Source: Thermoplasmata archaeon
Lineage (GTDB): Archaea > Thermoplasmatota > Thermoplasmata > Lutacidiplasmatales > UBA184
Length of the DNA stretch: 52,871 nucleotides
Direction of reading: 5' to 3'
NCBI GenBank assembly: GCA_050749765.1
Contig: JBOGRR010000002.1
Location: forward strand, 1-52,871
Shown here: positions 7,236 to 29,943 of the stretch, piece after piece
Position numbering within the stretch: position 1 is the first letter of the stretch
How the letters are laid out: each line of letters starts with the position of its first letter
Position numbers and translations under genes: made by a program
The notes under the pieces: generated by a model
The model's input: the letters and a program-made list of their open reading frames with translations, nothing else
The model's database searches: none
What the model was told of the DNA's origin: nothing

Positions 7236-8024
7236 TTAACGTTGCCCCGGGCCCCGCGCGACCGTTCGGGCCGCGCGTTGCGATGTAGCGAGCGCCCCGT
7301 CCCGCCGGACCCGTCGCGCCCCCACTCGGAGATCGGGCTCGAGCCGTTGAGTCGATGCACGAGCCCGCGGTTCCCGGAGCGGGCTCGCCCTCCAGGCCCG
7401 CAACGCTCGGCCGACGACCGACGGGGCCGACTCTCCCGAGCGAACTCGAAGGCGTCGGACCGGCACGATCCGAGACCAGCGGCCGAGCCAGAGCTCGCGC
7501 TCTCCCCGGCTCGCGGCGAGGTGCCGTTCGAAGAGCATCGGAGGGTGGCGAAGCCGGTCGCGTGCGGCGCGCCGGCGCCGCTCCGCCACCGGGACATCCA
7601 GGTACAGGACGAGGTCCGGGGACCCGAGGCGACCGTCGCTCATCGCCGCCCGCAGTAGCCGCGCCACGTAGCGCAGCGTCCCCGGCCCCGCGCGACCGGA
7701 GCGCACCAGGCCATAGGTGTAGGAAAGTGGGCCCCACGGCGCCGTGTCGAGGACCACGGACCGTCCCGAGCGAGCGAGGCGCTCGGCCAGCGCCCATCGG
7801 TGGATCTCCCGACGAACGAGGCGCTCCTCGATCCGTTTGAGCTGCGCGTCGGTCGTGAAGCGGATCGACAGGGGCGCTCCGTAGTGGAGCGCCTCGGCGA
7901 GGCGGACGGATCCCTCGGCGAGTGCAAGCGCTCGGGCGATCGCGGTCTTTCCGGCGCCCGATGCGCCCTCGATCGCAAGGATCGTGCCGCGCGGGGTGCG
8001 GAGGGGGGTGCGAACGGCGGCCAC
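7236..8024 (-). CDS. P-loop kinase of the dNK/TMPK superfamily (third TMPK-like gene in the window)
   Basis: GTG start at 8024. The Walker A reads ILAIEGASGAGKTAIARAL and a later VVLDTAPWGPLSYTYG resembles the D-R-Y/S..AY region. The function is not assignable from sequence alone. Confidence 0.65.
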   Translation of the reverse strand: MAAVRTPLRTPRGTILAIEGASGAGKTAIARALALAEGSVRLAEALHYGAPLSIRFTTDAQLKRIEERLVRREIHRWALAERLARSGRSVVLDTAPWGPLSYTYGLVRSGRAGPGTLRYVARLLRAAMSDGRLGSPDLVLYLDVPVAERRRRAARDRLRHPPMLFERHLAASRGERELWLGRWSRIVPVRRLRVRSGESAPSVVGRALRAWRASPLREPRARASTQRLEPDLRVGARRVRRDGALATSQRAARTVARGPGQR

Positions 8025-8052
8025 TGGGCCTAGGGGGAGCTCCCGCGCCCTT

Positions 8053-9345
8053 ATGGGGGGTCGGGACGCTCGGTCGCCCGTGGCGGAGGTCCCCGTCGAT
8101 CGCCATCGCTTCGGGGCCCGCGTCCTCGAGACCCGCTCGGCATCCGACCTCGCTCACGAGATCGCCCGGACCGATTCCGATCCCGAGGGCGTCGGCATCA
8201 TCACCCGCAAGGGACGGATCCTGCCGGTCTGGCTCGAGCACGTCTCGCTGCGCGCCTCGCCGCTCCTCAAGCAGGAGGCGCTCGCGGTCGGGGCCGATGC
8301 GGCGCACGCCCGAGGGGTCGCGGATCACTCGGTCGCGGAGAGCGCTGTGGTCCTCGTCGCGACCTGGGGGCAGTACCAACGTCTCCTGCCGAAGTTGCGG
8401 CGCCAGCCGTTCGGCCTCCATCCGCTCGCCGACGAGCTCGAAGCGGCGCTGCGTCAGTGGGCACGTCGCGCGCCGCGGACCGTCCGCGGCGCCCACCGCT
8501 CGTTCGCGGTCGGCGACCGACCCCGGGTGATGGGGGTCGTCAACGTGACGCCGGACTCGTTCAGCGACGGTGGGTCGTTCCTCGACCCGATCGCCGCGAT
8601 CGCCCACGCGCAGACGCTCATCGCCGACGGAGCCGACCTCATCGACATCGGCGGCGAGTCGACGCGGCCGGGCGCGTCGCCCGTCGACCCGGAGGAAGAG
8701 TGGCGGAGGATCGCTCCGGTCCTCGAGCACCTCGGTGCGAGTTCCTCCGTGCCGGTGAGCGTCGACACGCGACACGCCGAGGTCGCCCGCCGGGCGCTCG
8801 CCCGCGGGGCCGACCTCATCAACGATGTCAGCGGGCTCTCCGACCCCGAGATGCGACGGGTGGTCCGCGACGCGGGAGCGGCGGCGATCGTGATGCACAT
8901 GCGTGGCTCTCCGATCACGATGCAGTCCGATACCCACTACGCCGACCTGCGCTCGGAGGTCTATCGCGAACTCGCGCGGGCCATCGATCGTGCCCAGGAT
9001 GACGGGATCGGAATCGAGCACCTCCTCGTCGATCCCGGGCTCGGCTTCGGCAAGACCCACGAACAGAGCCTCGACCTGCTCGCCCACGCGGGAGAGCTCC
9101 GCAGCCTCGGTTGCCCGGTCGTGCTCGGCGCCTCGCGAAAATCGATGCTCGGCTGGGCGACCGGCGGCGCGCCGCTCGAGGGGCGCTCCGAGGCCGGGAT
9201 CGCAGCCGCGGTCCTCGCGGCGCTCCAGGGAGTGGAGATCATCCGAGCGCACGAGGTCGCCCCGACGGTGCGGGCGCTCGCGCTCGTGCGCCGGCTCGGC
9301 GAGACCGACCGCGGCCTCGACGACCCGCTCGCCGGCAGCGATTAG
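8053..9345 (+). CDS. folP: dihydropteroate synthase with ~165-aa N-terminal extension
   Basis: Pterin-binding domain: VMGVVNVTPDSFSDGG, DLIDIGGESTRPGA, VSVDT, LINDVSG, DPGLGFGKT, VLGASRKS. ATG 8053 was chosen because GTG 7984 would overlap the divergent gene. The N-terminal domain (ITRKGRILPVWLEHVSLRASPLLKQEALAVGADAA) has unknown function. Confidence 0.85.
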   Translation: MGGRDARSPVAEVPVDRHRFGARVLETRSASDLAHEIARTDSDPEGVGIITRKGRILPVWLEHVSLRASPLLKQEALAVGADAAHARGVADHSVAESAVVLVATWGQYQRLLPKLRRQPFGLHPLADELEAALRQWARRAPRTVRGAHRSFAVGDRPRVMGVVNVTPDSFSDGGSFLDPIAAIAHAQTLIADGADLIDIGGESTRPGASPVDPEEEWRRIAPVLEHLGASSSVPVSVDTRHAEVARRALARGADLINDVSGLSDPEMRRVVRDAGAAAIVMHMRGSPITMQSDTHYADLRSEVYRELARAIDRAQDDGIGIEHLLVDPGLGFGKTHEQSLDLLAHAGELRSLGCPVVLGASRKSMLGWATGGAPLEGRSEAGIAAAVLAALQGVEIIRAHEVAPTVRALALVRRLGETDRGLDDPLAGSD

Positions 9346-23202: not shown

Positions 23203-24708
23203 CTAGCTCGCAGGGCCCGGTCGGCGTAGGGTGATGATCGACTCCCGGAGCCGGAAGCGGCGTCGCTGACCGGAACGACGGGTCCGGGCGACCGCGACCG
23301 TCTCGATCTCAAAGCCGATCCGTCGCCCGATCCGCGCGAGGAGGAGATCGCCCGGGACGTAGGTTCCGGCGAGCAGGGAGTCGCCCACGACGAGGACGAA
23401 CCTTCCCCCGGGGACGAGCGTGCGATGGACCGACCGCAGGACCTGGGCGAGGTCGTGGAAGTAGCGATGGACGATCCCGTGCATATCGTTGCGCCGATAC
23501 GACCCCTTGCGCCGAACGTTCTCGCGGATCTGCCGGAGGATATCTCCGAGCCATGGGTCGGGGGTCGAATCGGTGCCGAGGTAGTGGGCGGTCGCGTCGC
23601 GCGGAAGGTTGTCGCAGGCGACCTCGGCGTGACGCAATGCGGCGAGATCGCGGTAGGAATCGGCGTAGCCGAGCCAAGCGAGGTCGAGCTTGTAGTTCAT
23701 CACGTAGTCTAGACCATTGACGTACGGCGGGCTCGTCAGAGCGAGGTCAACGCTCTCCGCTGGAAGAGCGATCGTGCGGGCGTCGCGGTCTACGACCTCC
23801 GCCCGCGGTCCCCAGCGCGCGCGTTCGGGCGCCAGCGCTTGCAGGTCGTCGGCCATCGCCGCGATCGTCCGCTCGATCTCGTCGTAGGGCCGAGGACGGC
23901 CGCTCGGATTCGGATCGTAGCCGAGGCATGGGGACCGCCGCAATCGGCTGCACGGAACGAGGGTCGCCCCGAAGGCGAGTCGAACGGCCTCGTCGATCCG
24001 ATCGCCCGACGCGCGGGGGAGCGCCGCCCGCAGTCGACGCAGCTCGCCGAGCGCCTCCGACGAGAACTGGCGCCGGGTCTCTCGCAAGAACGGGAGCGGT
24101 GCTGGGGGACCACGAGCCGCGTGTTGGAGCATGCGTCGGGAACGTGCTCGGAGCGCGACCGGGTCGAGTTCGAGGTCGGTCTTCACTCGGGCGGCGAGCG
24201 CGGCCGGAGCGAGGAGCTCGAAGCCGATTGCGCGCGCTCCCGCCCGTCGAGCCTCGACGAGGGTCGTGCCGCTGCCGGCGAACGGGTCGAGCACCGTGGT
24301 GCCTCGACCGATTTCGGCCTCCGCGAGAAGCGTCGCGACGAACTCCGCGGAATACCCCTGAACGTACGGCCACCATCGGTGGACGGGGAGTCGGTCGTTC
24401 GAGCGGAACGTGATCGGACCCGAGTACCGCCCCAGGGTGACCCCGTCCTCCCGAGCGAATCGCTCGAGGAAGCTGGCCGGATCGAGGAAGTCACCGCGCT
24501 CCTCGAGGTCAGCGAACGACTGCAGGATCCATAGCCCGCGACCGATCCGGAGCACCTCCCCTCGCGATTCGAGGAGCGCGAGCCGAGTCTCGACCGCCAC
24601 CGGCGCAGAGCTCAGGCGCGAAGCGAGCTGACGGACCGTGGCGCCCAGCGCACCGGATTCGTTCAGGGCGATCCGGAGGTCCGCGACGGGCGCGGCGGTC
24701 GCCGACAC
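23203..24708 (-). CDS. amino-(N6-A/N4-C) DNA methyltransferase with N-terminal winged-helix domain; apparently orphan
   Basis: GTG start at 24708. SAM motif I (VLDPFAGSGTT) precedes catalytic motif IV (LTSPPYVNG) by ~200 aa. The N-terminus (ATVRQLASRLSSAPVAVETRLALLESRGEVLRIGRGLW) looks like a wHTH. No nuclease-like neighbour is present. Confidence 0.8.
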   Translation of the reverse strand: MSATAAPVADLRIALNESGALGATVRQLASRLSSAPVAVETRLALLESRGEVLRIGRGLWILQSFADLEERGDFLDPASFLERFAREDGVTLGRYSGPITFRSNDRLPVHRWWPYVQGYSAEFVATLLAEAEIGRGTTVLDPFAGSGTTLVEARRAGARAIGFELLAPAALAARVKTDLELDPVALRARSRRMLQHAARGPPAPLPFLRETRRQFSSEALGELRRLRAALPRASGDRIDEAVRLAFGATLVPCSRLRRSPCLGYDPNPSGRPRPYDEIERTIAAMADDLQALAPERARWGPRAEVVDRDARTIALPAESVDLALTSPPYVNGLDYVMNYKLDLAWLGYADSYRDLAALRHAEVACDNLPRDATAHYLGTDSTPDPWLGDILRQIRENVRRKGSYRRNDMHGIVHRYFHDLAQVLRSVHRTLVPGGRFVLVVGDSLLAGTYVPGDLLLARIGRRIGFEIETVAVARTRRSGQRRRFRLRESIITLRRPGPAS

Positions 24709-24738
24709 GACCGCCCATCGACCCCTTCGGCTATCTCG

Positions 24739-25629
24739 CTATCGCCCGCGCACGCGTGCCGGACCGAGATGGCGGCGCGGGTGCAACTGAGCGATCTCGG
24801 CGATCAAGCTCGCCCGTAACTCCTCGCGCCCCTGATGGAGTCGGCGCCCCCAGGCGCTCGCACGGTGCTGGGGGGCGACGCGGATGAGATGCATCGCCAG
24901 CAGATCGCGATCATGGAGCTCTCCCAATCGGCGCTGTAGGCGGGCGTAGCGCGTCGGGAACGATGGTCGCTCCCGGCCCGCGAGCGAGTCCTCGAGGTCG
25001 GTGAGATATCGCAACTGGCGGACCCGGATCCGTAGGTCGTGCATGCGGTGCGGCTCCGCGGCGGCGAGCGAGCGGCGACGGGCCCGCGCGGTTGCGCGGG
25101 CGAGCCGCCCACGCTCGCCGTCGAGGGCGGCGCGGAGCGCGCCGAGGCTCCGAGGAGCGTCGACGCGGGCGAGGTGGTTCTCGAGCTCACGGAAGAGCCC
25201 GGTCGCCCGCTCCGCGCGCAGGGAGGCGCGCAGGAGCTCGCGACCGGTCCGCGCTGACTCGCGCAACCGCAGGCCGAACGAGTCGAGGTCGCTCCCGCGG
25301 TCCGAGGCCGGCCGATGCACGTGCTCCCACAGCCCGAGCTCGACATCCAGATCCCGGACAGACCCTACGAGACGCGAGAGGCGACGCAGGTGGGCGCCGA
25401 TCGAGCGGAGACGCTCGCGTTGGCGAGCCGGACCGACCCGTCCCCACCAACGTACGAGGGTGCGCAGCCGGCGAAGGTCGCGGTGGAGCTCGTGCAGAAC
25501 CTCGGTGGACGGGTGGAGATGGTCGACCACGGCATCCGTCGCCTCCCGAGCCCGTTCGACCTCTTGACGAGCGTAGAGCGCCAGCGCGGACGTAGAGGGG
25601 CCGAACCGCGCTCCCGTGTTGCTCGGCAT
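24739..25629 (-). CDS. CHAD-domain protein (polyphosphate-granule associated family)
   Basis: ATG 25629 lies within the longer track ORF. Repeated helical His/Arg motifs are present: VLHELHRDLRRLRTLVRWWG, HLRRLSRLVGSVRDLDV, MHDLRIRVRQLRYLTDL and LQRRLGELHDRDLL. Confidence 0.85.
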   Translation of the reverse strand: MPSNTGARFGPSTSALALYARQEVERAREATDAVVDHLHPSTEVLHELHRDLRRLRTLVRWWGRVGPARQRERLRSIGAHLRRLSRLVGSVRDLDVELGLWEHVHRPASDRGSDLDSFGLRLRESARTGRELLRASLRAERATGLFRELENHLARVDAPRSLGALRAALDGERGRLARATARARRRSLAAAEPHRMHDLRIRVRQLRYLTDLEDSLAGRERPSFPTRYARLQRRLGELHDRDLLAMHLIRVAPQHRASAWGRRLHQGREELRASLIAEIAQLHPRRHLGPARVRGR

Positions 25630-25702
25630 CCTCGCGTGCGGCCGCCCCCAACCCGTAGCGGCCGCGGGCCAAAACAGTATTCCGAGCAGAGAGTTCGGTC
25701 CG

Positions 25703-27298
25703 ATGGCTCTTAGCCCGGCGACCGATGAGGTCCTCGTGGCTCGGGGCCGACTCCAAATGGCCGATCGCACCCTCGATCTCACCCCCGCGCACGGACCAAA
25801 CGCGATCGGCGTCGTCGATGTCGGTTCGAACACCGCCCGGCTCGTGGTCTTCGACGCCAGCCGCTCGAGGGTCGTTCGCCCGATCTTCGAAGCCAAGGAG
25901 ATCCCTCGGCTCGGGGCGCATCTGAGCGCGGATGGGTCGCTCGCGCCCGAGGCGATCGAGCGCGGCGTCGAGTCGCTGCGTCGATTCGCTCAGACCCTCC
26001 GGGGTCTCGAGGTGCGGCGGACGCTCGCGGTGACGACGAGCGCGGTGCGCGACGCGCCGAACGGCCGGGAGTTCGTGCGCGCCGCCGAACGCGCGACCGG
26101 GATCCTGCTCCGGGTACTGACCGGGGCGGAGGAAGCGCGCTACGGCTACCTGGGCGTGGCGAGCGCGTGGGAGTTGCACAACGATCTCGTCGTCGACCTC
26201 GGCGGGGGGTCGCTGCAGGTCGTGGAGACCCGCAAGGGACTGCTCGCGAACTCGGTGAGCCTGCCCCTCGGCGGGCTGCGCCTCACCCAGCGATTCATCG
26301 CGCACGACCCGCCGAAGGACCGCGAACTCGAGGATCTGCGCGACGAGGTGCGAGGGTCGATCCACTCGACCCTCACCGCGTTCGCGGGGGGGGAGTACCG
26401 CGTCTTCGCGATGGGCGGAACCGTGCGCGCGGTCGCCCGGGCGGCGATCGAGCTGCGCGAGTATCCGATCCCGAGGGTCCACGGCTACGCGATCCGCCAG
26501 CACGACCTCGACGCGCTCCGGGGGCTCGTCGCCGAACTTCCGACGGGAAAGCGACGGGCGATTCCGGGGATCGGCCAAGAGCGCGCCGACGTGATCGATG
26601 CGGGACTCGTCGTGCTCACCGAGCTACTGCGCGTTTCGAAGGCGTCCGAGATCCTCGTCACGGGGACGGGGATCCGTGAGGGACTCGCGCTCGAGGCGAT
26701 CGACGCCTCGCTCCCCGCCTCGGCCGAGGCGCTCGCGGACCGGTCGGTGGAGGCGGCCGCCGAACGGTTCACGTTCTCGATCGATCGCGGGCGCGAGGTC
26801 GCCGACCTCGCGAGCCAGCTCTTCGATCTCCTCGCGCCCGCGCGCGAGTGGGGAGCAAGCGAGCGACTCGCGCTCCGGGTCGCCGCCCAGATGCACGACG
26901 CGGGGGTCTCGATCGACCTCTGGCGCCACGCGCACCACTCGGCCTACCTCATTCGCAATTACCCGATCTGGGGCCTCACCCACCGTGAGACGCTGCTCGC
27001 CGCAACGATCGTCGCGCTCCATGCCGGGGACGATCTCCCGAGCGGGCTGCGCAAAGGGCTCCAGCCGGTCCTCCGCTCGGGCGACCCCGGGCTCGCGCGA
27101 CGGCTCAGCGCACTCCTTCAGCTCGCCGGGCTCCTGGCCCCCGCCGGTCCCAAGTTCGCACTGAGCGCGAGCGGCGAGGCCCTGGCCGTGACCTTTACAA
27201 GTCCCCCGGCTACGACCCTACCCCCCCGAGCCGTGGAGAAATCCAAGAAGCCCATCGAACGCGAACTCGGCCTGGAGGTCCGCTTCCGCGATGGCTGA
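25703..27298 (+). CDS. ppx: exopolyphosphatase (Ppx/GppA family)
   Basis: ASKHA motifs: VVDVGSNTARLVVF, AVTTSAVRDAPNG and VVDLGGGSLQV. The C-terminal HD-like domain reads QMHDAGVSIDLWRHAHHSAYLI. ATG 25703 was chosen; ATG 25757 is a possible alternative. Confidence 0.9.
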   Translation: MALSPATDEVLVARGRLQMADRTLDLTPAHGPNAIGVVDVGSNTARLVVFDASRSRVVRPIFEAKEIPRLGAHLSADGSLAPEAIERGVESLRRFAQTLRGLEVRRTLAVTTSAVRDAPNGREFVRAAERATGILLRVLTGAEEARYGYLGVASAWELHNDLVVDLGGGSLQVVETRKGLLANSVSLPLGGLRLTQRFIAHDPPKDRELEDLRDEVRGSIHSTLTAFAGGEYRVFAMGGTVRAVARAAIELREYPIPRVHGYAIRQHDLDALRGLVAELPTGKRRAIPGIGQERADVIDAGLVVLTELLRVSKASEILVTGTGIREGLALEAIDASLPASAEALADRSVEAAAERFTFSIDRGREVADLASQLFDLLAPAREWGASERLALRVAAQMHDAGVSIDLWRHAHHSAYLIRNYPIWGLTHRETLLAATIVALHAGDDLPSGLRKGLQPVLRSGDPGLARRLSALLQLAGLLAPAGPKFALSASGEALAVTFTSPPATTLPPRAVEKSKKPIERELGLEVRFRDG

Positions 27299-27989
27299 TC
27301 CTGCGGCGCCGGCCCGCGGCTATCCCGGGCGACTGCTCGTGTTCGAGGGCCTCGACGGGAGCGGGAAGTCGACCCAGGCCCACCTGCTGGGGAAGTGGCT
27401 CGGTTCTCGCGGCTATCGTGTCTTCCATACCGAGTGGAACTCTTCCGACCTCGTGAGCGAGATCATCCGACGGGGGAAGAAGCGCGGTTTGCTCACGCCG
27501 ACGACCTTCAGCCTGTTGCACGCGACCGACTTCGCCGACCGCTTCGAGCGGCAGATCCTTCCGCCGCTGCGGGCCGGCTACCTCGTCATCTGCGACCGTT
27601 ATGCTTACACGGCGTTCGCGCGCGACGCGGCGCGGGGCTGCGCGCCGGATTGGGTGCGCAACCTCTACGCCTTCGCTCCGCCGCCGGACCGCACGTACTA
27701 CTTCCAGGTCCCGGTCGCGCTCACGTTGCGTCGCAAGACGGCGTCCCGCCTCAAGATCTCCTACTACGAGGCCGGCATGGACCTCGGGCTCTCCGACAGT
27801 CTGCACGACAGCTACCTGCTCTTCCAGTCCCGGCTCAAGCGCGAATACGACCGGATGGTGAAGACCGACGGCTTCCACGTCCTCGACGCGCGAGGCACCG
27901 TAGAGGAGATCCAGCAAGGGCTGCGCGCCGATCTCCGGGGATTGCTCGAGGCATTCCCGACGAGGGGGAGGCTCGCACATGAAGGGTAG
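27291..27989 (+). CDS. thymidylate-kinase-fold P-loop kinase A (annotatable as dTMP kinase family; candidate polyP-kinase subunit)
   Basis: Motifs: LLVFEGLDGSGKSTQ (canonical Walker A), LLHATDFADR and ICDRYAYTAF. The ATG overlaps the ppx stop by 8 nt (ATGGCTGA). Confidence 0.85.
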   Translation: MADPAAPARGYPGRLLVFEGLDGSGKSTQAHLLGKWLGSRGYRVFHTEWNSSDLVSEIIRRGKKRGLLTPTTFSLLHATDFADRFERQILPPLRAGYLVICDRYAYTAFARDAARGCAPDWVRNLYAFAPPPDRTYYFQVPVALTLRRKTASRLKISYYEAGMDLGLSDSLHDSYLLFQSRLKREYDRMVKTDGFHVLDARGTVEEIQQGLRADLRGLLEAFPTRGRLAHEG

Positions 27990-28719
27990 GACCTACGGAA
28001 CGCGGCTCCCGGGGATGACGGAGGATCCCCTGAACGGTCGGCTGATCGTGATCGAGGGGGCCGACGGCTCGGGTCGCACGACCGAGGTCGGGCGCCTCAA
28101 GGAGTCGCTCGAGATCGACGGCCACTCCGTCGTCGACACCGGCCTGCGACGTTCCACGCTCGTGAGCGAACAGATCGACCAGGCGAAGCGGGGCCACACC
28201 CTCGCCCCGACGACGATGGCGCTGCTCTACGCGACCGACTACGCGGATCAGCTCGAGAACAAGATGATCCCCGCGCTCGCCGCCGGGAGCACCGTGCTCG
28301 CGGACCGGTACATCTACACGCTGATGGCGCGGGCCATCGCCCGGGGAGCCTCGCGGCGCTGGGCCGAGGAGCTCTACGGGTTTGCGCTGCGACCGGACCT
28401 CGTGATCTTCCTGGACGCCCGGCCCGAGATCCTCCTGCACCGCGCGATCTCGAAGTATGGGAGCCTCGACTACTGGGAGTCGGGAATGGACCTTTCGATC
28501 TCCGCGGACCGATTCCAGAGCTTTCTCGAGTACCAGGCCCGACTGCGCCGCGAGTTCGCGTGGATGGAGGGGGCCTATGGCTTCCACATGCTGGACGCGA
28601 ACCGCCACCCCGACCAGGTCCACGCCGATGTCGCGCGCTGGGTCGCGCCGCTCTACGGGGGCGAACGCCCCCGCCCCAAGCGACCTAGCGGCGGGCGGCC
28701 CCCCACTGCTTCCGAGTGA
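27979..28719 (+). CDS. thymidylate-kinase-fold paralog B with Walker A Lys replaced by Arg (candidate non-catalytic or regulatory subunit)
   Basis: Motifs: LIVIEGADGSGRTTE (Arg codon cgc at 28075-28077), LLYATDYADQ and LADRYIYTLM. It aligns along its length with kinase A. The ATG overlaps the upstream stop by 11 nt, and GGGGGAGG ends 7 nt upstream. Confidence 0.85.
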   Translation: MKGRTYGTRLPGMTEDPLNGRLIVIEGADGSGRTTEVGRLKESLEIDGHSVVDTGLRRSTLVSEQIDQAKRGHTLAPTTMALLYATDYADQLENKMIPALAAGSTVLADRYIYTLMARAIARGASRRWAEELYGFALRPDLVIFLDARPEILLHRAISKYGSLDYWESGMDLSISADRFQSFLEYQARLRREFAWMEGAYGFHMLDANRHPDQVHADVARWVAPLYGGERPRPKRPSGGRPPTASE

Positions 28720-29191
28720 GCAACCACTCCAGCCGGCCGGCCCCGGGGGCGACCCGGCGGGGGAACTCGATCGCGGCCGTCCCGGCCTTGCGGAGGTGCG
28801 CGATCGGGACCGTCTCGGCGGTCAGGGCGAGCCCGACGAGCTGGGCGAGACCCGGTGCATGCCCCACGAGCACGACCGCCCCCGACGGGCGAGCCTCCCG
28901 CACCAGCCGCTCGAACGCCTCGAGCGGAGCCCGGCCGATCCCGAGCTCGGGCCACGACCGGAGCGAGGGCGCGGGTTCGAGCTCTTCCGCGAAGATCTCG
29001 GCGGTGCGGGTGGTTCGGCGCGCGGGGCTCGTGCCGATCCAGTCGACCGCTCCGACCACCCGCGCGAACGCGCGAGCGACCGCGCGCGTTTCGCGCGATC
29101 CCTGCGGGGAGAGCGGTCGGGCCGTGTCGCCCGGCCACCGAGCCGGATCTCGGGGATACGCCGGTCCGTGGCGCACGAGATAGAGCTTCAT
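28685..29191 (-). CDS. sixA: SixA-type phosphohistidine phosphatase (histidine phosphatase superfamily)
   Basis: Motifs: MKLYLVRHGPA (RHG motif), SPARRTTRTAEI and VLVGHAPGL. The 3' end overlaps kinase B by 35 nt in a convergent arrangement. Confidence 0.8.
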   Translation of the reverse strand: MKLYLVRHGPAYPRDPARWPGDTARPLSPQGSRETRAVARAFARVVGAVDWIGTSPARRTTRTAEIFAEELEPAPSLRSWPELGIGRAPLEAFERLVREARPSGAVVLVGHAPGLAQLVGLALTAETVPIAHLRKAGTAAIEFPRRVAPGAGRLEWLLTRKQWGAARR

Positions 29192-29241
29192 ACGGGCTCG
29201 AGCGCGACGAGTCGCAGTCCCCCTTGAGCGTTCGGGCGGGG

Positions 29242-29943
29242 TTAGGCCCGGGCCGTGCGACCCCAGCGCTCACCGAGGGCGAGGCCGAGCGCGGCGCGAA
29301 CCAGCAGAAGAGCGACCACAAAGAGCGGGATCAGGAACACGTCGCCCGCCGGCCACGCGAGGCCGAGGGCTTCCCCGCCCCAGAAGGTCGCGAACGCAAA
29401 GAGGAGCGAGGTCGCGCCGAGCTTCAACCACGGGGCCTTGATGCGCCGGATCCGCTCGTGGACGAGTGCGACGTAGATCGCGAGCACCGCTCCGGCCGCG
29501 AGGGCGCCGACGAGCGCCGAGCCCGCCGCGCCCCCCGCGGCGAGTGGGACGAGCACGGCGACGGCCTCGGTCGCCTCGACCGCGCCGACGGTGAACCCCG
29601 CCGCGAAGTGGACGGGCGCGGACGGCGGGGGCCCCCGCTCCGAAGCCGGTTGGCGCGCGCGACGGTAGCTCCGCAGCGTGCTTCGGAACAGGAAGACCCC
29701 GAACGCCGCGAGCACGATCGCGGATGCGGCGAGGAGCTCCGCCGAGGGGATCGCCGCGAGCGTCGCACCGGCGACGGCGGCGACTCCAGCGACGAGCGCG
29801 ACGCCCGCGGCGGCCCCCATCGCGCCGTGGCGTACCGAGCCGTGTTCGATCCCGAGGGCGAAGATCAGGAGGACGACCTCCGTCATCTCGAGCAGCGTGA
29901 TCACGAAGGCGAGCAGGAGCGGCGCTGGCGCGAGGAGGCTCAT
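29242..29943 (-). CDS. integral membrane protein with internal two-fold repeat (E-x-T-E motifs)
   Basis: About 6 TM segments. LLEMTEVVLLIFALG in the first half is mirrored by AVEATEAVAVLVPLA in the second. ATG 29943 is preferred to TTG 29958. The family was not recognised. Confidence 0.65.
   Translation of the reverse strand: MSLLAPAPLLLAFVITLLEMTEVVLLIFALGIEHGSVRHGAMGAAAGVALVAGVAAVAGATLAAIPSAELLAASAIVLAAFGVFLFRSTLRSYRRARQPASERGPPPSAPVHFAAGFTVGAVEATEAVAVLVPLAAGGAAGSALVGALAAGAVLAIYVALVHERIRRIKAPWLKLGATSLLFAFATFWGGEALGLAWPAGDVFLIPLFVVALLLVRAALGLALGERWGRTARA

What the first reader, a model, noticed from the sequence alone, without database searches (positions are those of the whole stretch)
24739..29191. 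CHAD, PPX, two TMPK-like genes and SixA: candidate archaeal polyphosphate module with a two-subunit thymidylate-kinase-fold polyP kinase
Seen in sequence:
- ppx (25703-27298) is translationally coupled to two consecutive paralogous thymidylate-kinase-fold genes.
- The overlaps are 8 nt at 27291-27298 (ATGGCTGA) and 11 nt at 27979-27989, with GGGGGAGG ending 7 nt before the second ATG.
- The two paralogs align end to end: LLVFEGLDGSGKSTQ / LIVIEGADGSGRTTE; LLHATDFAD / LLYATDYAD; ICDRYAYTAFARDAARG / LADRYIYTLMARAIARG; YYEAGMDLG / YWESGMDLS; GFHVLDA / GFHMLDA.
- A CHAD-domain gene is divergently transcribed 73 bp upstream.
- A SixA-type histidine phosphatase converges on the operon and overlaps its 3' end.
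- No PPK1 or PPK2 gene is in the window.

Established knowledge:
- CHAD proteins associate with polyP granules.
- PPX degrades polyP.
- PPK2 is itself a P-loop kinase of the TMPK fold.
- Many archaea make polyP without PPK1 or PPK2.
- From my recollection, which must be verified, a heteromeric polyP kinase built from two proteins annotated as thymidylate kinases and encoded beside ppx was recently reported for Sulfolobus acidocaldarius (PPK3).

Inference: these genes are not duplicated housekeeping tmk. They are the synthase half of a polyP synthesis, degradation and granule module. Finding it in a GC-rich, gyrase-bearing, Thermoplasmata-like genome with CHAD and SixA attached would extend and enlarge that system.
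Basis: partly seen in the sequence, partly recalled or inferred. Interest (0 to 1): 0.9.

Follow-up and report, generated by a model that had tools for sequence, protein, structure and literature searches.

The report
PPK3-type polyphosphate kinase operon, Thermoplasmata

Summary
All sequence observations hold: the five genes, the 8-nt and 11-nt overlaps, the GGGGGAGG, the 73-bp divergent gap and the convergent SixA overlap.

Gene A (27291-27989) is the ortholog of the catalytic PPK3 subunit. It is 47% identical to Saci_2019 and scores 202 bits to the S. tokodaii structure 2plr/5h70, against 56 bits to any canonical Tmk. Gene B (27979-28719) falls in the regulatory-subunit clade with Saci_2020 (96% bootstrap). 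PPK3 separates from canonical Tmk (99.5%).

PPK3 is published (Hofmann et al., JBC 2026, PMC12995831). The S. acidocaldarius operon already contains SixA, PPX, both kinase paralogs and CHAD, so CHAD and SixA do not enlarge the system.

Modestly new points:
- The module is conserved in about 39 species-level Thermoplasmata MAGs, a class the paper's main text does not name. At least 558 stretches in GTDB species genomes encode relatives.
- B keeps the DRY arginine that the paper says rPPK3 has lost, and carries a Walker-A Lys-to-Arg change instead. That holds for every non-Sulfolobales B-type sampled, so the characterised Saci_2020 is a degenerate outlier.

Genome-wide absence of PPK1/PPK2, and enzyme activity, could not be tested.

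Verdict: new member of a known kind, interest about 0.35.

The parts
24739..25629 (-). CHAD-domain protein (296 aa), divergent from ppx; presumed polyP-granule-binding protein
   Evidence: Pfam PF05235 E 2.3e-19, covering 20-248 of 296 aa. Called as CHAD in the public MAG annotation. Weak local similarity to the Saci_2021 product (E 1e-5). Found on the minus strand upstream of PPX in most Thermoplasmata loci.
25630..25702 (.). 73-bp divergent intergenic region with an AT-rich TATA-like box (about 25671-25681) roughly 22-32 nt upstream of the ppx ATG; inferred archaeal promoter giving a leaderless or short-leader ppx-A-B transcript
   Evidence: Sequence read. Comparable AT-rich boxes lie 20-30 nt upstream of the predicted ppx start in many Thermoplasmata loci. 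No sigma-70-like promoter or intrinsic terminator in 24500-29400. Promoter function is inferred, not shown.
25703..27298 (+). Exopolyphosphatase PPX/GppA family (531 aa), first gene of the ppx-A-B operon
   Evidence: Pfam Ppx-GppA E 7.4e-56 and Ppx-GppA_III E 8e-16. TIGR03706 exo_poly_only scores 276.7 bits against a 307 cut-off. 113 bits to the S. acidocaldarius Saci_2018 product.
27291..27989 (+). Gene A: ortholog of the PPK3 catalytic subunit cPPK3 (232 aa); start overlaps the ppx stop by 8 nt (ATGGCTGA)
   Evidence: 202 bits, E 1e-58 to S. tokodaii ST1543 (2plr/5h70), against 56 bits to the best canonical Tmk. 47% identity, E 3e-70 to Saci_2019. Lies in the A-type clade with Saci_2019 and STK_15430 (79% bootstrap). 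Carries the family-invariant motifs GSGKST, TEWNSS, GKKxxLLTP, HATDFADR and DRY, and a basic lid.
27964..27971 (+). GGGGGAGG Shine-Dalgarno-like element 7 nt upstream of the ATG of gene B, inside the 3' end of gene A
   Evidence: Read directly. A function in translational coupling is inferred.
27979..28719 (+). Gene B: ortholog of the PPK3 partner (regulatory) subunit rPPK3 (246 aa); start overlaps the stop of A by 11 nt. Walker-A Lys is replaced by Arg (GSGRTT) while DRY is retained
   Evidence: 33% identity, E 2e-33 to Saci_2020. Saci_2020 scores 98 bits to B against 63 bits to A. B-type clade including Saci_2020 has 96% bootstrap. Motif table. AF2 model has pLDDT 88 and pTM 0.84; its best PDB matches are the ST1543 structures, target-normalised TM-score (TMt) 0.87-0.92, ahead of canonical Tmks.
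28685..29191 (-). SixA-like histidine phosphatase (168 aa), convergent with the 3' end of B and overlapping it by 35 nt
   Evidence: His_Phos_1 E 1.3e-11. TIGR00249 sixA E 4.5e-16 but 59 bits against a 74.5 cut-off. RHG and VGHAP motifs are visible in the translation. 36 bits to the Saci_2017 product. Conserved at this position in most Thermoplasmata loci.

Best explanation
The region is a polyphosphate (polyP) metabolism module of the published PPK3 type.

- ppx, A and B form one transcription unit, translationally coupled by 8-nt and 11-nt stop/start overlaps. The coupling should produce the two kinase paralogs in matched amounts.
- A is the catalytic subunit (cPPK3). It has a thymidylate-kinase fold in which the dTMP site is replaced by a basic cleft for the polyP chain. 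It reversibly transfers phosphate between ATP/ADP and polyP.
- B is the partner subunit (rPPK3). By analogy with S. acidocaldarius it dimerises, binds one A on each side (alpha2beta2) and raises A's activity.
- By analogy with SaPPK3, the complex mainly regenerates ATP from polyP plus ADP when energy charge is low, and builds polyP only at a high ATP/ADP ratio.
- PPX hydrolyses polyP. The divergent CHAD protein coats the polyP granule. The convergent SixA-like phosphatase has a still unknown accessory role.

Shown here: gene content, orthology, conserved order and coupling, and fold.
Inferred from the Sulfolobus enzyme: activity, stoichiometry, preferred direction and the role of B.
For: - Orthology of A. 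202 bits to ST1543 (2plr/5h70) against 56 bits to any canonical Tmk. 47% identity to Saci_2019.
- Orthology of B. 33% identity, E 2e-33 to Saci_2020. Saci_2020 scores higher to B than to A.
- Tree. NJ with 165 sequences and 200 bootstraps. A-types including Saci_2019 are monophyletic at 79%, B-types including Saci_2020 at 96%, and PPK3 separates from E. coli, Vibrio, Pseudomonas, Aquifex and Thermus Tmk at 99.5%.
- dTMP site. The canonical 'REPGG', 'LLF.A.R' and 'AYQG' motifs are replaced by TEWNSS, LLHATDF and A-RD (alignment). This matches the paper's statement that dTMP-binding residues are not conserved.
- Charge asymmetry. A has net charge +8 and B has 0. The lid of A reads LRRKTASRLK and that of B reads LHRAISKYGS. 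This matches the conserved basic cleft in cPPK3 but not rPPK3.
- Context. The same five-gene set occurs in the experimentally studied Saci_2017-2021 operon.
- Conservation. The A>B tandem is present in every untruncated locus among 80 genomes. The order CHAD< PPX> A> B> SixA< recurs in most of the 39 species-level Thermoplasmata loci. The 11-nt A/B overlap occurs in 37 loci and an 8- or 11-nt PPX/A overlap in 36.
- Rosetta-stone fusions. Natural c-r fusions exist (L078, P0242, P0339). Other relatives fuse the kinase domain to PPX domain III, an inorganic pyrophosphatase or an SPX domain.
- Biochemistry of the orthologs. Saci_2019 makes polyP and shows no dTMP kinase activity. Saci_2020 is inactive but stimulates it.
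- Structure. The AF2 model of B matches the ST1543 structures best.
Against: - No biochemistry exists for this or any Thermoplasmata pair.
- B does not show the lesion used in the paper to explain rPPK3 inactivity. It keeps DRY (R110). It shares 45 positions that are at least 95% conserved across phyla with the other non-Sulfolobales B-types, and Saci_2020 keeps only 26 of these. 'Inactive scaffold' may therefore not transfer from Sulfolobus.
- Both proteins pass the NCBIfam dTMP-kinase equivalog cut-off (90.9 and 83.5 against 83.25).
- I could not establish that the genome has a separate canonical tmk, or that it lacks PPK1 and PPK2. Only the 52.9-kb window was searchable.
- The tree is distance-based, and support for A-type monophyly is moderate (79%).
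Confidence: 0.8

Rival explanations
1. Same PPK3 module, but B is not a dead scaffold. In Thermoplasmata, and in all sampled non-Sulfolobales lineages, B would be a second functional site. Its Arg-substituted P-loop, intact DRY and conserved E-S-G-M-D would bind a ligand (a nucleotide, or a polyP end) or catalyse a second phosphotransfer. Regulation would then differ from the Sulfolobus model.
For: - All 75 non-Sulfolobales B-types carry G(S/V)GR(S/T)T and DRY. 45 positions are at least 95% conserved across archaeal and bacterial phyla, including R33, D109-R110-Y111, R118, R155 and E167-S168-G169.
- Saci_2020 and the S. tokodaii rPPK3 keep only 26 and 24 of those 45 positions, and sit on long branches.
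- B-types evolve only slightly faster than A-types: mean distance 0.76 against 0.61.
Against: - From general knowledge, Walker-A Lys-to-Arg substitutions usually cripple phosphoryl transfer in P-loop enzymes.
- B lacks the basic lid and the net positive charge of A.
- The only tested rPPK3 is inactive.
- Strong conservation could equally reflect the subunit interface and nucleotide-dependent regulation.
Confidence: 0.22
2. A and B are duplicated genuine dTMP kinases for housekeeping nucleotide metabolism, and their position next to ppx is coincidental.
For: - Both hit Pfam Thymidylate_kin, and both pass the TIGR00041 cut-off.
- Public annotation calls them dTMP kinase.
- No clear canonical tmk is present in the window. 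There is only a distant 262-aa P-loop protein at 7236-8024.
Against: - Their closest characterised relatives, Saci_2019 and Saci_2020, have no dTMP kinase activity.
- They form a clade apart from canonical Tmk (99.5%).
- The dTMP-site motifs are replaced.
- Linkage to PPX, CHAD and SixA is conserved over dozens of species and several phyla.
- Relatives are fused to phosphate-metabolism domains.
Confidence: 0.03
3. A polyP- or ATP-dependent kinase complex of the PPK3 fold, but with a different preferred acceptor or donor. Candidates are AMP, GDP or other NDPs, or a link to guanosine penta/tetraphosphate through the PPX/GppA gene. The physiological output would then not be ADP to ATP buffering.
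For: - PPX/GppA-family enzymes can act on pppGpp. NF008260, the pppGpp (GppA) diphosphatase model, gives a 148-bit sub-threshold hit.
- SaPPK3 shows some activity with GDP.
- Substrate choice cannot be read from sequence. PPK2 classes differ in exactly this respect.
Against: - The ADP-contacting residues are reported as highly conserved across PPK3s.
- A is 47-49% identical to the ADP-bound S. tokodaii protein, and the P-loop and lid motifs are identical in type.
- The PPX scores best to the exopolyphosphatase-only model.
Confidence: 0.08

Closest known systems
SaPPK3 of Sulfolobus acidocaldarius (Saci_2019 cPPK3 + Saci_2020 rPPK3) and its operon Saci_2017-2021 (Hofmann et al., J Biol Chem 2026, PMC12995831; preprint 10.1101/2024.08.28.610084)
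   Same: - The same five gene families: SixA, PPX, cPPK3, rPPK3 and CHAD.
- c precedes r, with overlapping stop and start codons.
- A is 47% identical to Saci_2019 and B is 33% identical to Saci_2020.
- Both subunits have a thymidylate-kinase fold without the dTMP-site residues.
- The catalytic subunit is basic and the partner is neutral.
   Different: - Gene arrangement. Here CHAD is divergent upstream and SixA convergent downstream. In Sulfolobus all five genes are co-directional as sixA-ppx-c-r-CHAD.
- B keeps the DRX arginine (DRY), which Saci_2020 has lost (DGY), and has a Walker-A Lys-to-Arg change, where Saci_2020 keeps Lys.
- The host is a 70% GC, apparently soil-derived Thermoplasmata MAG rather than a thermoacidophilic crenarchaeon.
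- PPX is 531 aa with domain III, against 411 aa.
- No biochemistry is available.
ST1543 / STK_15430 of Sulfurisphaera tokodaii (PDB 2plr, 4nzy, 4rzx, 5h70), deposited as 'dTMP kinase' and now regarded as a cPPK3 homolog
   Same: Best solved-structure match for both A (E 1e-58) and B (E 1.4e-31). Also the best structural match for the AF2 model of B (target-normalised TM-score, TMt, 0.87-0.92).
   Different: It is a single catalytic-type chain. No structure of a partner subunit or of a heteromer has been solved.
Canonical thymidylate kinase (Tmk; Pfam PF02223, TIGR00041), for example E. coli Tmk (4tmk) and T. thermophilus Tmk (5x7j)
   Same: Fold, P-loop, DRX motif and lid architecture. HMM scores are above the family cut-offs.
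   Different: - Separate clade (99.5% bootstrap).
- dTMP-binding motifs are replaced.
- Always found as a linked pair beside polyP genes.
- The characterised orthologs lack dTMP kinase activity.
Two-domain class II PPK2 (for example P. aeruginosa PA3455)
   Same: An analogous design: an active P-loop kinase unit paired with an inactive paralogous unit that mediates oligomerisation. Equilibrium favours polyP-driven nucleotide phosphorylation (discussed).
   Different: A different family. There is no PF03976 hit. Two separate polypeptides here rather than one fused chain. The ADP and polyP sites are reported to be swapped relative to PPK2.

Membership tests
PPK3 (Hofmann et al. 2026) | Catalytic subunit belongs to the cPPK3 clade (with Saci_2019 and STK_15430), distinct from canonical dTMPK | tested here: met
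   A scores 202 bits to ST1543 against 56 bits to the best canonical Tmk. 47% identity to Saci_2019. A-type clade 79% bootstrap and PPK3 versus Tmk 99.5%.
PPK3 (Hofmann et al. 2026) | A second, adjacent paralog belongs to the rPPK3 clade (with Saci_2020) | tested here: met
   B is 33% identical to Saci_2020, E 2e-33. Saci_2020 scores 98 bits to B against 63 bits to A. B-type clade including Saci_2020 has 96% bootstrap. The A>B tandem is present in all 80 related loci that are not truncated.
PPK3 (Hofmann et al. 2026) | rPPK3 has lost the catalytic arginine of the DRX motif (the paper's explanation of its inactivity) | tested here: not met
   B reads ADRYIYT, while Saci_2020 and the S. tokodaii rPPK3 read ADGY. 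All 75 non-Sulfolobales B-types keep DRY. They share a Walker-A Lys-to-Arg change instead (GSGRTT). This feature therefore appears specific to Sulfolobales rather than defining the family.
PPK3 (Hofmann et al. 2026) | dTMP-binding residues of Tmk are not conserved, while the ATP/ADP site (P-loop, lid) is conserved in the catalytic subunit | tested here: met
   Alignment with E. coli, Pseudomonas, Thermus and Aquifex Tmk. REPGG becomes TEWNSS, LLF.A.R becomes LLHATDF, and AYQG becomes A-RD. GSGKST and DRY are intact in A. Which Tmk residues contact dTMP rests on my own knowledge and on the paper's statement.
PPK3 (Hofmann et al. 2026) | Basic polyP-binding cleft conserved in cPPK3 but not in rPPK3 | tested here: inconclusive
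   Consistent at sequence level. Net charge is +8 for A and 0 for B. The basic lid (LRRKTASRLK) and GKK are invariant in A-types and absent in B. No surface electrostatics or docking could be computed.
PPK3 (Hofmann et al. 2026) | Operonic association with ppx, sixA and a CHAD gene | tested here: met
   All three are present and adjacent. The association is conserved in the Thermoplasmata loci. The same set occurs in S. acidocaldarius.
PPK3 (Hofmann et al. 2026) | Genome encodes a separate canonical dTMPK and (in most cases) no PPK1 or PPK2 | not testable with these tools
   Only the 52.9-kb window could be scanned. It has no PPK1 or PPK2 hit and no clear canonical tmk.
PPK3 (Hofmann et al. 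2026) | Reversible ATP:polyP phosphotransferase activity, alpha2beta2 heterotetramer, activation of c by r | not testable with these tools
   This needs biochemistry.
Canonical thymidylate kinase (TIGR00041 / PF02223) | HMM score above the curated cut-off | tested here: met
   A scores 90.9 bits and B 83.5 bits against a cut-off of 83.25. Pfam scores are 82 and 78 bits against 27. This explains the public 'dTMP kinase' names.
Canonical thymidylate kinase (TIGR00041 / PF02223) | Groups with biochemically proven Tmk and keeps the dTMP-site residues | tested here: not met
   Separated from five proven Tmks at 99.5% bootstrap. The dTMP-site motifs are replaced. The nearest characterised proteins have no dTMPK activity.
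PPK2 (PF03976) | Match to the PPK2 profile | tested here: not met
   No PF03976 hit at E <= 0.01 for A or B. No PPK2 structure among the top 50 fold matches of B.
SixA phosphohistidine phosphatase (TIGR00249) | Equivalog score above the cut-off; RHG catalytic motif | tested here: inconclusive
   59.1 bits against a cut-off of 74.5, aligned end to end (1-156 of 168). His_Phos_1 is above its cut-off. RHG and VGHAP motifs are present. Best described as SixA-like.

The most novel reading that the evidence does not exclude
The typical PPK3 partner subunit, as in this Thermoplasmata operon and every sampled bacterial and Nitrososphaeria pair, is not the degenerate inactive scaffold described for Sulfolobus. 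It would be a conserved second site, with an obligatory Arg in place of the Walker-A Lys and an intact DRY. It would bind a nucleotide or the polyP chain end, and so gate or take part in phosphotransfer. On this reading the published mechanism of rPPK3 (loss of the DRX arginine) describes a lineage-specific decay. Most PPK3 enzymes, present in at least hundreds of species, would then work and be regulated differently.
Probability: 0.22. Interest if true: 0.6.

Novelty: new member of a known kind. Interest (0 to 1): 0.35.

Why it matters
- **Unrecognised PPK3 hosts.** Soil Thermoplasmata can be added to the organisms with an identifiable polyP kinase. In the S. acidocaldarius enzyme this kinase acts as a polyP-to-ATP energy buffer.
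- **Wider distribution than published.** The published summary is Sulfolobaceae, Nitrososphaeraceae and a few bacteria. Here at least 558 stretches in GTDB species genomes encode relatives.
- **Systematic misannotation.** Both subunits pass NCBI's dTMP-kinase equivalog threshold, so thousands of MAG proteins are named dTMP kinase. Surveys of phosphorus cycling that count only PPK1 and PPK2 will miss them.
- **A specific, testable discrepancy.** The only characterised regulatory subunit is atypical of its clade. This affects how far the Sulfolobus mechanism can be generalised.

Tried and rejected
1. **PPK2 membership.** No PF03976 hit for A or B. Rejected.
2. **Housekeeping tmk.** Rejected on phylogeny, site motifs, conserved context and the biochemistry of the orthologs.
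3. **A/B as a recent Thermoplasmata-specific duplication.** Rejected. A and B each group with their Sulfolobus, Nitrososphaeria and bacterial counterparts, so the duplication predates the spread.
4. **Paper supplements (Figs S16 and S19, Data S1).** I wanted to see whether Thermoplasmata or the Walker-A change were already recorded. No supplementary files are held. The main texts of the paper and the preprint do not mention Thermoplasmata, Euryarchaeota (in a PPK3 context) or Walker A. No paper in the library combines PPK3, polyphosphate and Thermoplasmat*.
5. **A canonical tmk in the window.** Only a 262-aa P-loop ORF (7236-8024) with sub-threshold Tmk-like similarity and no DRX motif was found. 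Undecided.
6. **Bacterial-type promoter and terminator scan of the locus.** Nothing found, as expected for an archaeon.
7. **Heteromer structure prediction.** The monomer model of B confirmed only the fold.
9. **Tree method.** No maximum-likelihood program was available, so I used neighbour joining on Kimura distances with 200 bootstraps.

Full report
**1. Observation**

The five genes are present at the stated coordinates.
- CHAD, 24739-25629 (-): PF05235, E 2e-19.
- PPX, 25703-27298 (+): Ppx-GppA E 7e-56 plus domain III.
- Gene A, 27291-27989 (+), and gene B, 27979-28719 (+): both Pfam Thymidylate_kin, E 5e-23 and 1e-21.
- SixA-like histidine phosphatase, 28685-29191 (-): His_Phos_1 E 1e-11. 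The TIGR sixA model scores 59 bits, below its 74.5 cut-off.

Reading the DNA confirms each junction.
- The ATGGCTGA overlap lies at 27291-27298, and the 11-nt overlap at 27979-27989.
- GGGGGAGG lies at 27964-27971, 7 nt before the ATG of B.
- The divergent CHAD-ppx gap is 73 bp.
- B and SixA converge with a 35-nt overlap.

A and B are 41% identical over 196 residues (E 4e-48). No ORF of the window hits PPK1 or PPK2.

The window is 69.7% GC. It carries GyrA together with archaeal markers: an archaeosine-synthase-like DUF5591+PUA protein, HTH_10, archaeal/eukaryotic-type ribosomal protein S15 (Ribosomal_S13_N + Ribosomal_S15) and TYW2/Trm5. The same DNA occurs in NCBI MAGs GCA_974218075.1 and GCA_050749545.1 with the same gene calls. 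Close homologs of A and B are named 'Thermoplasmata archaeon'.

**2. What it is**

Hofmann et al. (J Biol Chem 2026, PMC12995831; preprint 2024) reported these findings for S. acidocaldarius.
- Saci_2019 (cPPK3) and Saci_2020 (rPPK3) were both annotated as thymidylate kinases. Together they form a heteromeric polyP kinase.
- Saci_2019 makes polyP and has no dTMP kinase activity.
- Saci_2020 is inactive but stimulates Saci_2019.

I fetched that operon (L085) and the S. tokodaii one (L086).
- A is 47% identical to Saci_2019 (E 3e-70).
- A scores 202 bits to the S. tokodaii structure 2plr/5h70, against 56 bits to the best canonical Tmk.
- B is 33% identical to Saci_2020 (E 2e-33).
- Saci_2020 scores 98 bits to B but 63 bits to A.

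I built a neighbour-joining tree of 165 sequences: A- and B-types from 80 genomes, the two Sulfolobales pairs, and five proven Tmks as outgroup.
- A-types including Saci_2019 and STK_15430 form a clade in 79% of 200 bootstraps.
- B-types including Saci_2020 form a clade in 96%.
- PPK3 separates from canonical Tmk in 99.5%.

The duplication therefore predates the spread of the pair. A is a cPPK3 ortholog and B an rPPK3 ortholog.

The canonical Tmk motifs around the dTMP site are replaced in both proteins, as the paper states for PPK3. An AF2 model of B (pLDDT 88, pTM 0.84) matches the ST1543 structures best (target-normalised TM-score, TMt, 0.87-0.92). Canonical Tmks rank lower.

**3. Conservation**

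The best 80 loci break down as follows.
- 39 Thermoplasmata MAGs at 68-82% identity.
- Nitrososphaeria at 50-59% identity.
- Many bacterial phyla at 50-59% identity, including Bacteroidota, Acidobacteriota, Nitrospirota, Chloroflexota, Sumerlaeota, Verrucomicrobiota, Binatota and Proteobacteria.

Searching six-frame ORFs of these loci with the five window proteins gave these results.
- The A>B tandem is present in every untruncated locus.
- The arrangement CHAD< PPX> A> B> SixA< occurs in most Thermoplasmata loci.
- Other phyla carry the same gene set in other orders.

The stop/start overlaps are conserved too. The A/B overlap is 11 nt in 37 loci, and the PPX/A overlap is 8 or 11 nt in 36 (start codons were chosen heuristically). 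Both Thermoplasmata subtrees are monophyletic, at 99% and 85%.

**4. How it most likely works**

- ppx-A-B is one translationally coupled unit. It is probably transcribed from an archaeal TATA-like box about 25 nt upstream of the ppx ATG. Similar AT-rich boxes occur in relatives. This step is inferred.
- A has an intact GSGKST P-loop, DRY, a basic lid and net charge +8. It is the catalytic subunit that moves phosphate between ATP/ADP and polyP.
- B has net charge 0 and a non-basic lid. It is the partner that assembles and activates A.
- By analogy with SaPPK3, the complex should be reversible and favour polyP + ADP to ATP. It would build polyP only at a high ATP/ADP ratio.
- PPX degrades polyP and CHAD binds the granule. 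The role of the SixA-like protein is unknown, also in Sulfolobus.
- Activity, stoichiometry and direction are inferred, not shown.

**5. Where it differs from the published system**

(a) The gene set is the same, so CHAD and SixA do not enlarge the system. Only the arrangement differs: CHAD is divergent and SixA convergent.

(b) The paper explains rPPK3 inactivity by loss of the DRX arginine. That holds for Saci_2020 and the S. tokodaii rPPK3, which read ADGY. It does not hold for B, which reads ADRY, nor for any of the 75 non-Sulfolobales B-types sampled.
- Those B-types all carry a Walker-A Lys-to-Arg change instead (GSGR[ST]T or GVGRST). Saci_2020 keeps Lys.
- Non-Sulfolobales B-types share 45 positions that are at least 95% conserved, including R33, D109-R110-Y111, R118, R155 and E167-S168-G169.
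- Saci_2020 keeps 26 of those 45 and the S. tokodaii rPPK3 keeps 24.

The characterised regulatory subunit is thus a degenerate outlier of its clade. Whether the typical B is catalytically dead, as the K-to-R change suggests, or has a ligand-binding role remains open.

(c) The main texts of the paper and the preprint name Sulfolobaceae/Sulfolobales, Nitrososphaeraceae and 'a few bacteria'. They do not name Thermoplasmata. No paper in the library links PPK3 with Thermoplasmata. The supplements could not be read, so prior inclusion in their trees cannot be excluded.

**6. Rivals**

- Housekeeping dTMP kinases. Both proteins pass the TIGR00041 cut-off, which explains the public names. Phylogeny, site motifs, context and ortholog biochemistry argue strongly against this reading.
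- A functional B site. This is the main live alternative, with probability about 0.2.
- A different nucleotide preference. This cannot be excluded from sequence.

**7. Limits**

- I could not scan the rest of the MAG for PPK1, PPK2 or a canonical tmk.
- I could not run a heteromer prediction.
- No maximum-likelihood program was available.
- The window's only other Tmk-like ORF (7236-8024) is a distant P-loop protein without a DRX motif.

**8. Verdict**

The system is already described, so this is a new member of a known kind. It adds a taxonomic extension and one mechanistically relevant sequence discrepancy. Interest is about 0.35.

Noticed in passing
Proteins P0245, P0261, P0321, P0335, P0351, P0354, P0362, P0369, P0380 (representatives search with B): Long multidomain proteins carry a cPPK3-like (GSGKS) kinase domain fused to phosphate-related modules. 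The fusion partners are two Tmk-like domains plus PPX domain III/HD; an inorganic pyrophosphatase (InPase, 1610 aa); SPX + DUF2252; and MFS transporter + APH/DUF2252. The SPX and MFS partners hint at eukaryotic members tied to phosphate sensing or transport.
   Followed up: partly
L078:5911-7374 (Vicinamibacteria MAG); also P0242 and P0339: Natural single-chain fusions of the catalytic-type and partner-type domains, in c-then-r order. This supports a physical c-r complex outside Sulfolobus.
   Followed up: partly
window 7236-8024 (-): A 262-aa P-loop protein (ILAIEGASGAGKT, lid-like RRRRAARDR) with only sub-threshold Thymidylate_kin and AAA_33 similarity and no DRX motif. It is 27% identical to E. 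coli Tmk over 175 aa. Its 5' end overlaps a divergent folP-like Pterin_bind gene (7984-9345). It is an unassigned kinase, and could conceivably be the lineage's divergent nucleotide kinase.
   Followed up: partly
L001:11452-12540 (GCA_050749545.1), equivalent to the B/SixA junction at window ~28719: A sister MAG with identical A and B proteins has an extra 362-aa gene with no Pfam hit inserted between B and SixA. This removes the convergent overlap seen in the window. It may be a mobile insertion.
   Followed up: no
window 25630-25702 and the equivalent regions of L005-L043: In a roughly 70% GC background, AT-rich TATA-like boxes sit about 20-30 nt upstream of the predicted ppx start in many Thermoplasmata loci. 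A second box lies further upstream, presumably for the divergent CHAD gene. This suggests leaderless or short-leader transcripts.
   Followed up: partly
B-type proteins of L044, L045, L047, L054, L071 (Bacteroidota / Chlorobiaceae): These partner subunits carry a 12-residue insertion in the lid region (for example HTLHKRYWVEQSGEG) that all other B-types lack.
   Followed up: no
window 27291-28719 and thousands of database homologs: Both PPK3 subunits pass NCBIfam's dTMP-kinase 'equivalog' cut-off: 90.9 and 83.5 bits against 83.25. They are accordingly named dTMP kinase or thymidylate kinase in public MAG annotation. This is a systematic misannotation that hides polyP kinases in metagenomic surveys.
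   Followed up: yes
L085:7572-9447 (S. acidocaldarius, downstream of the PPK3 operon): A resolvase plus a Cas12f/TnpB-like gene pair (an IS-type element) lies about 0.7 kb beyond the CHAD gene of the reference operon.
   Followed up: no
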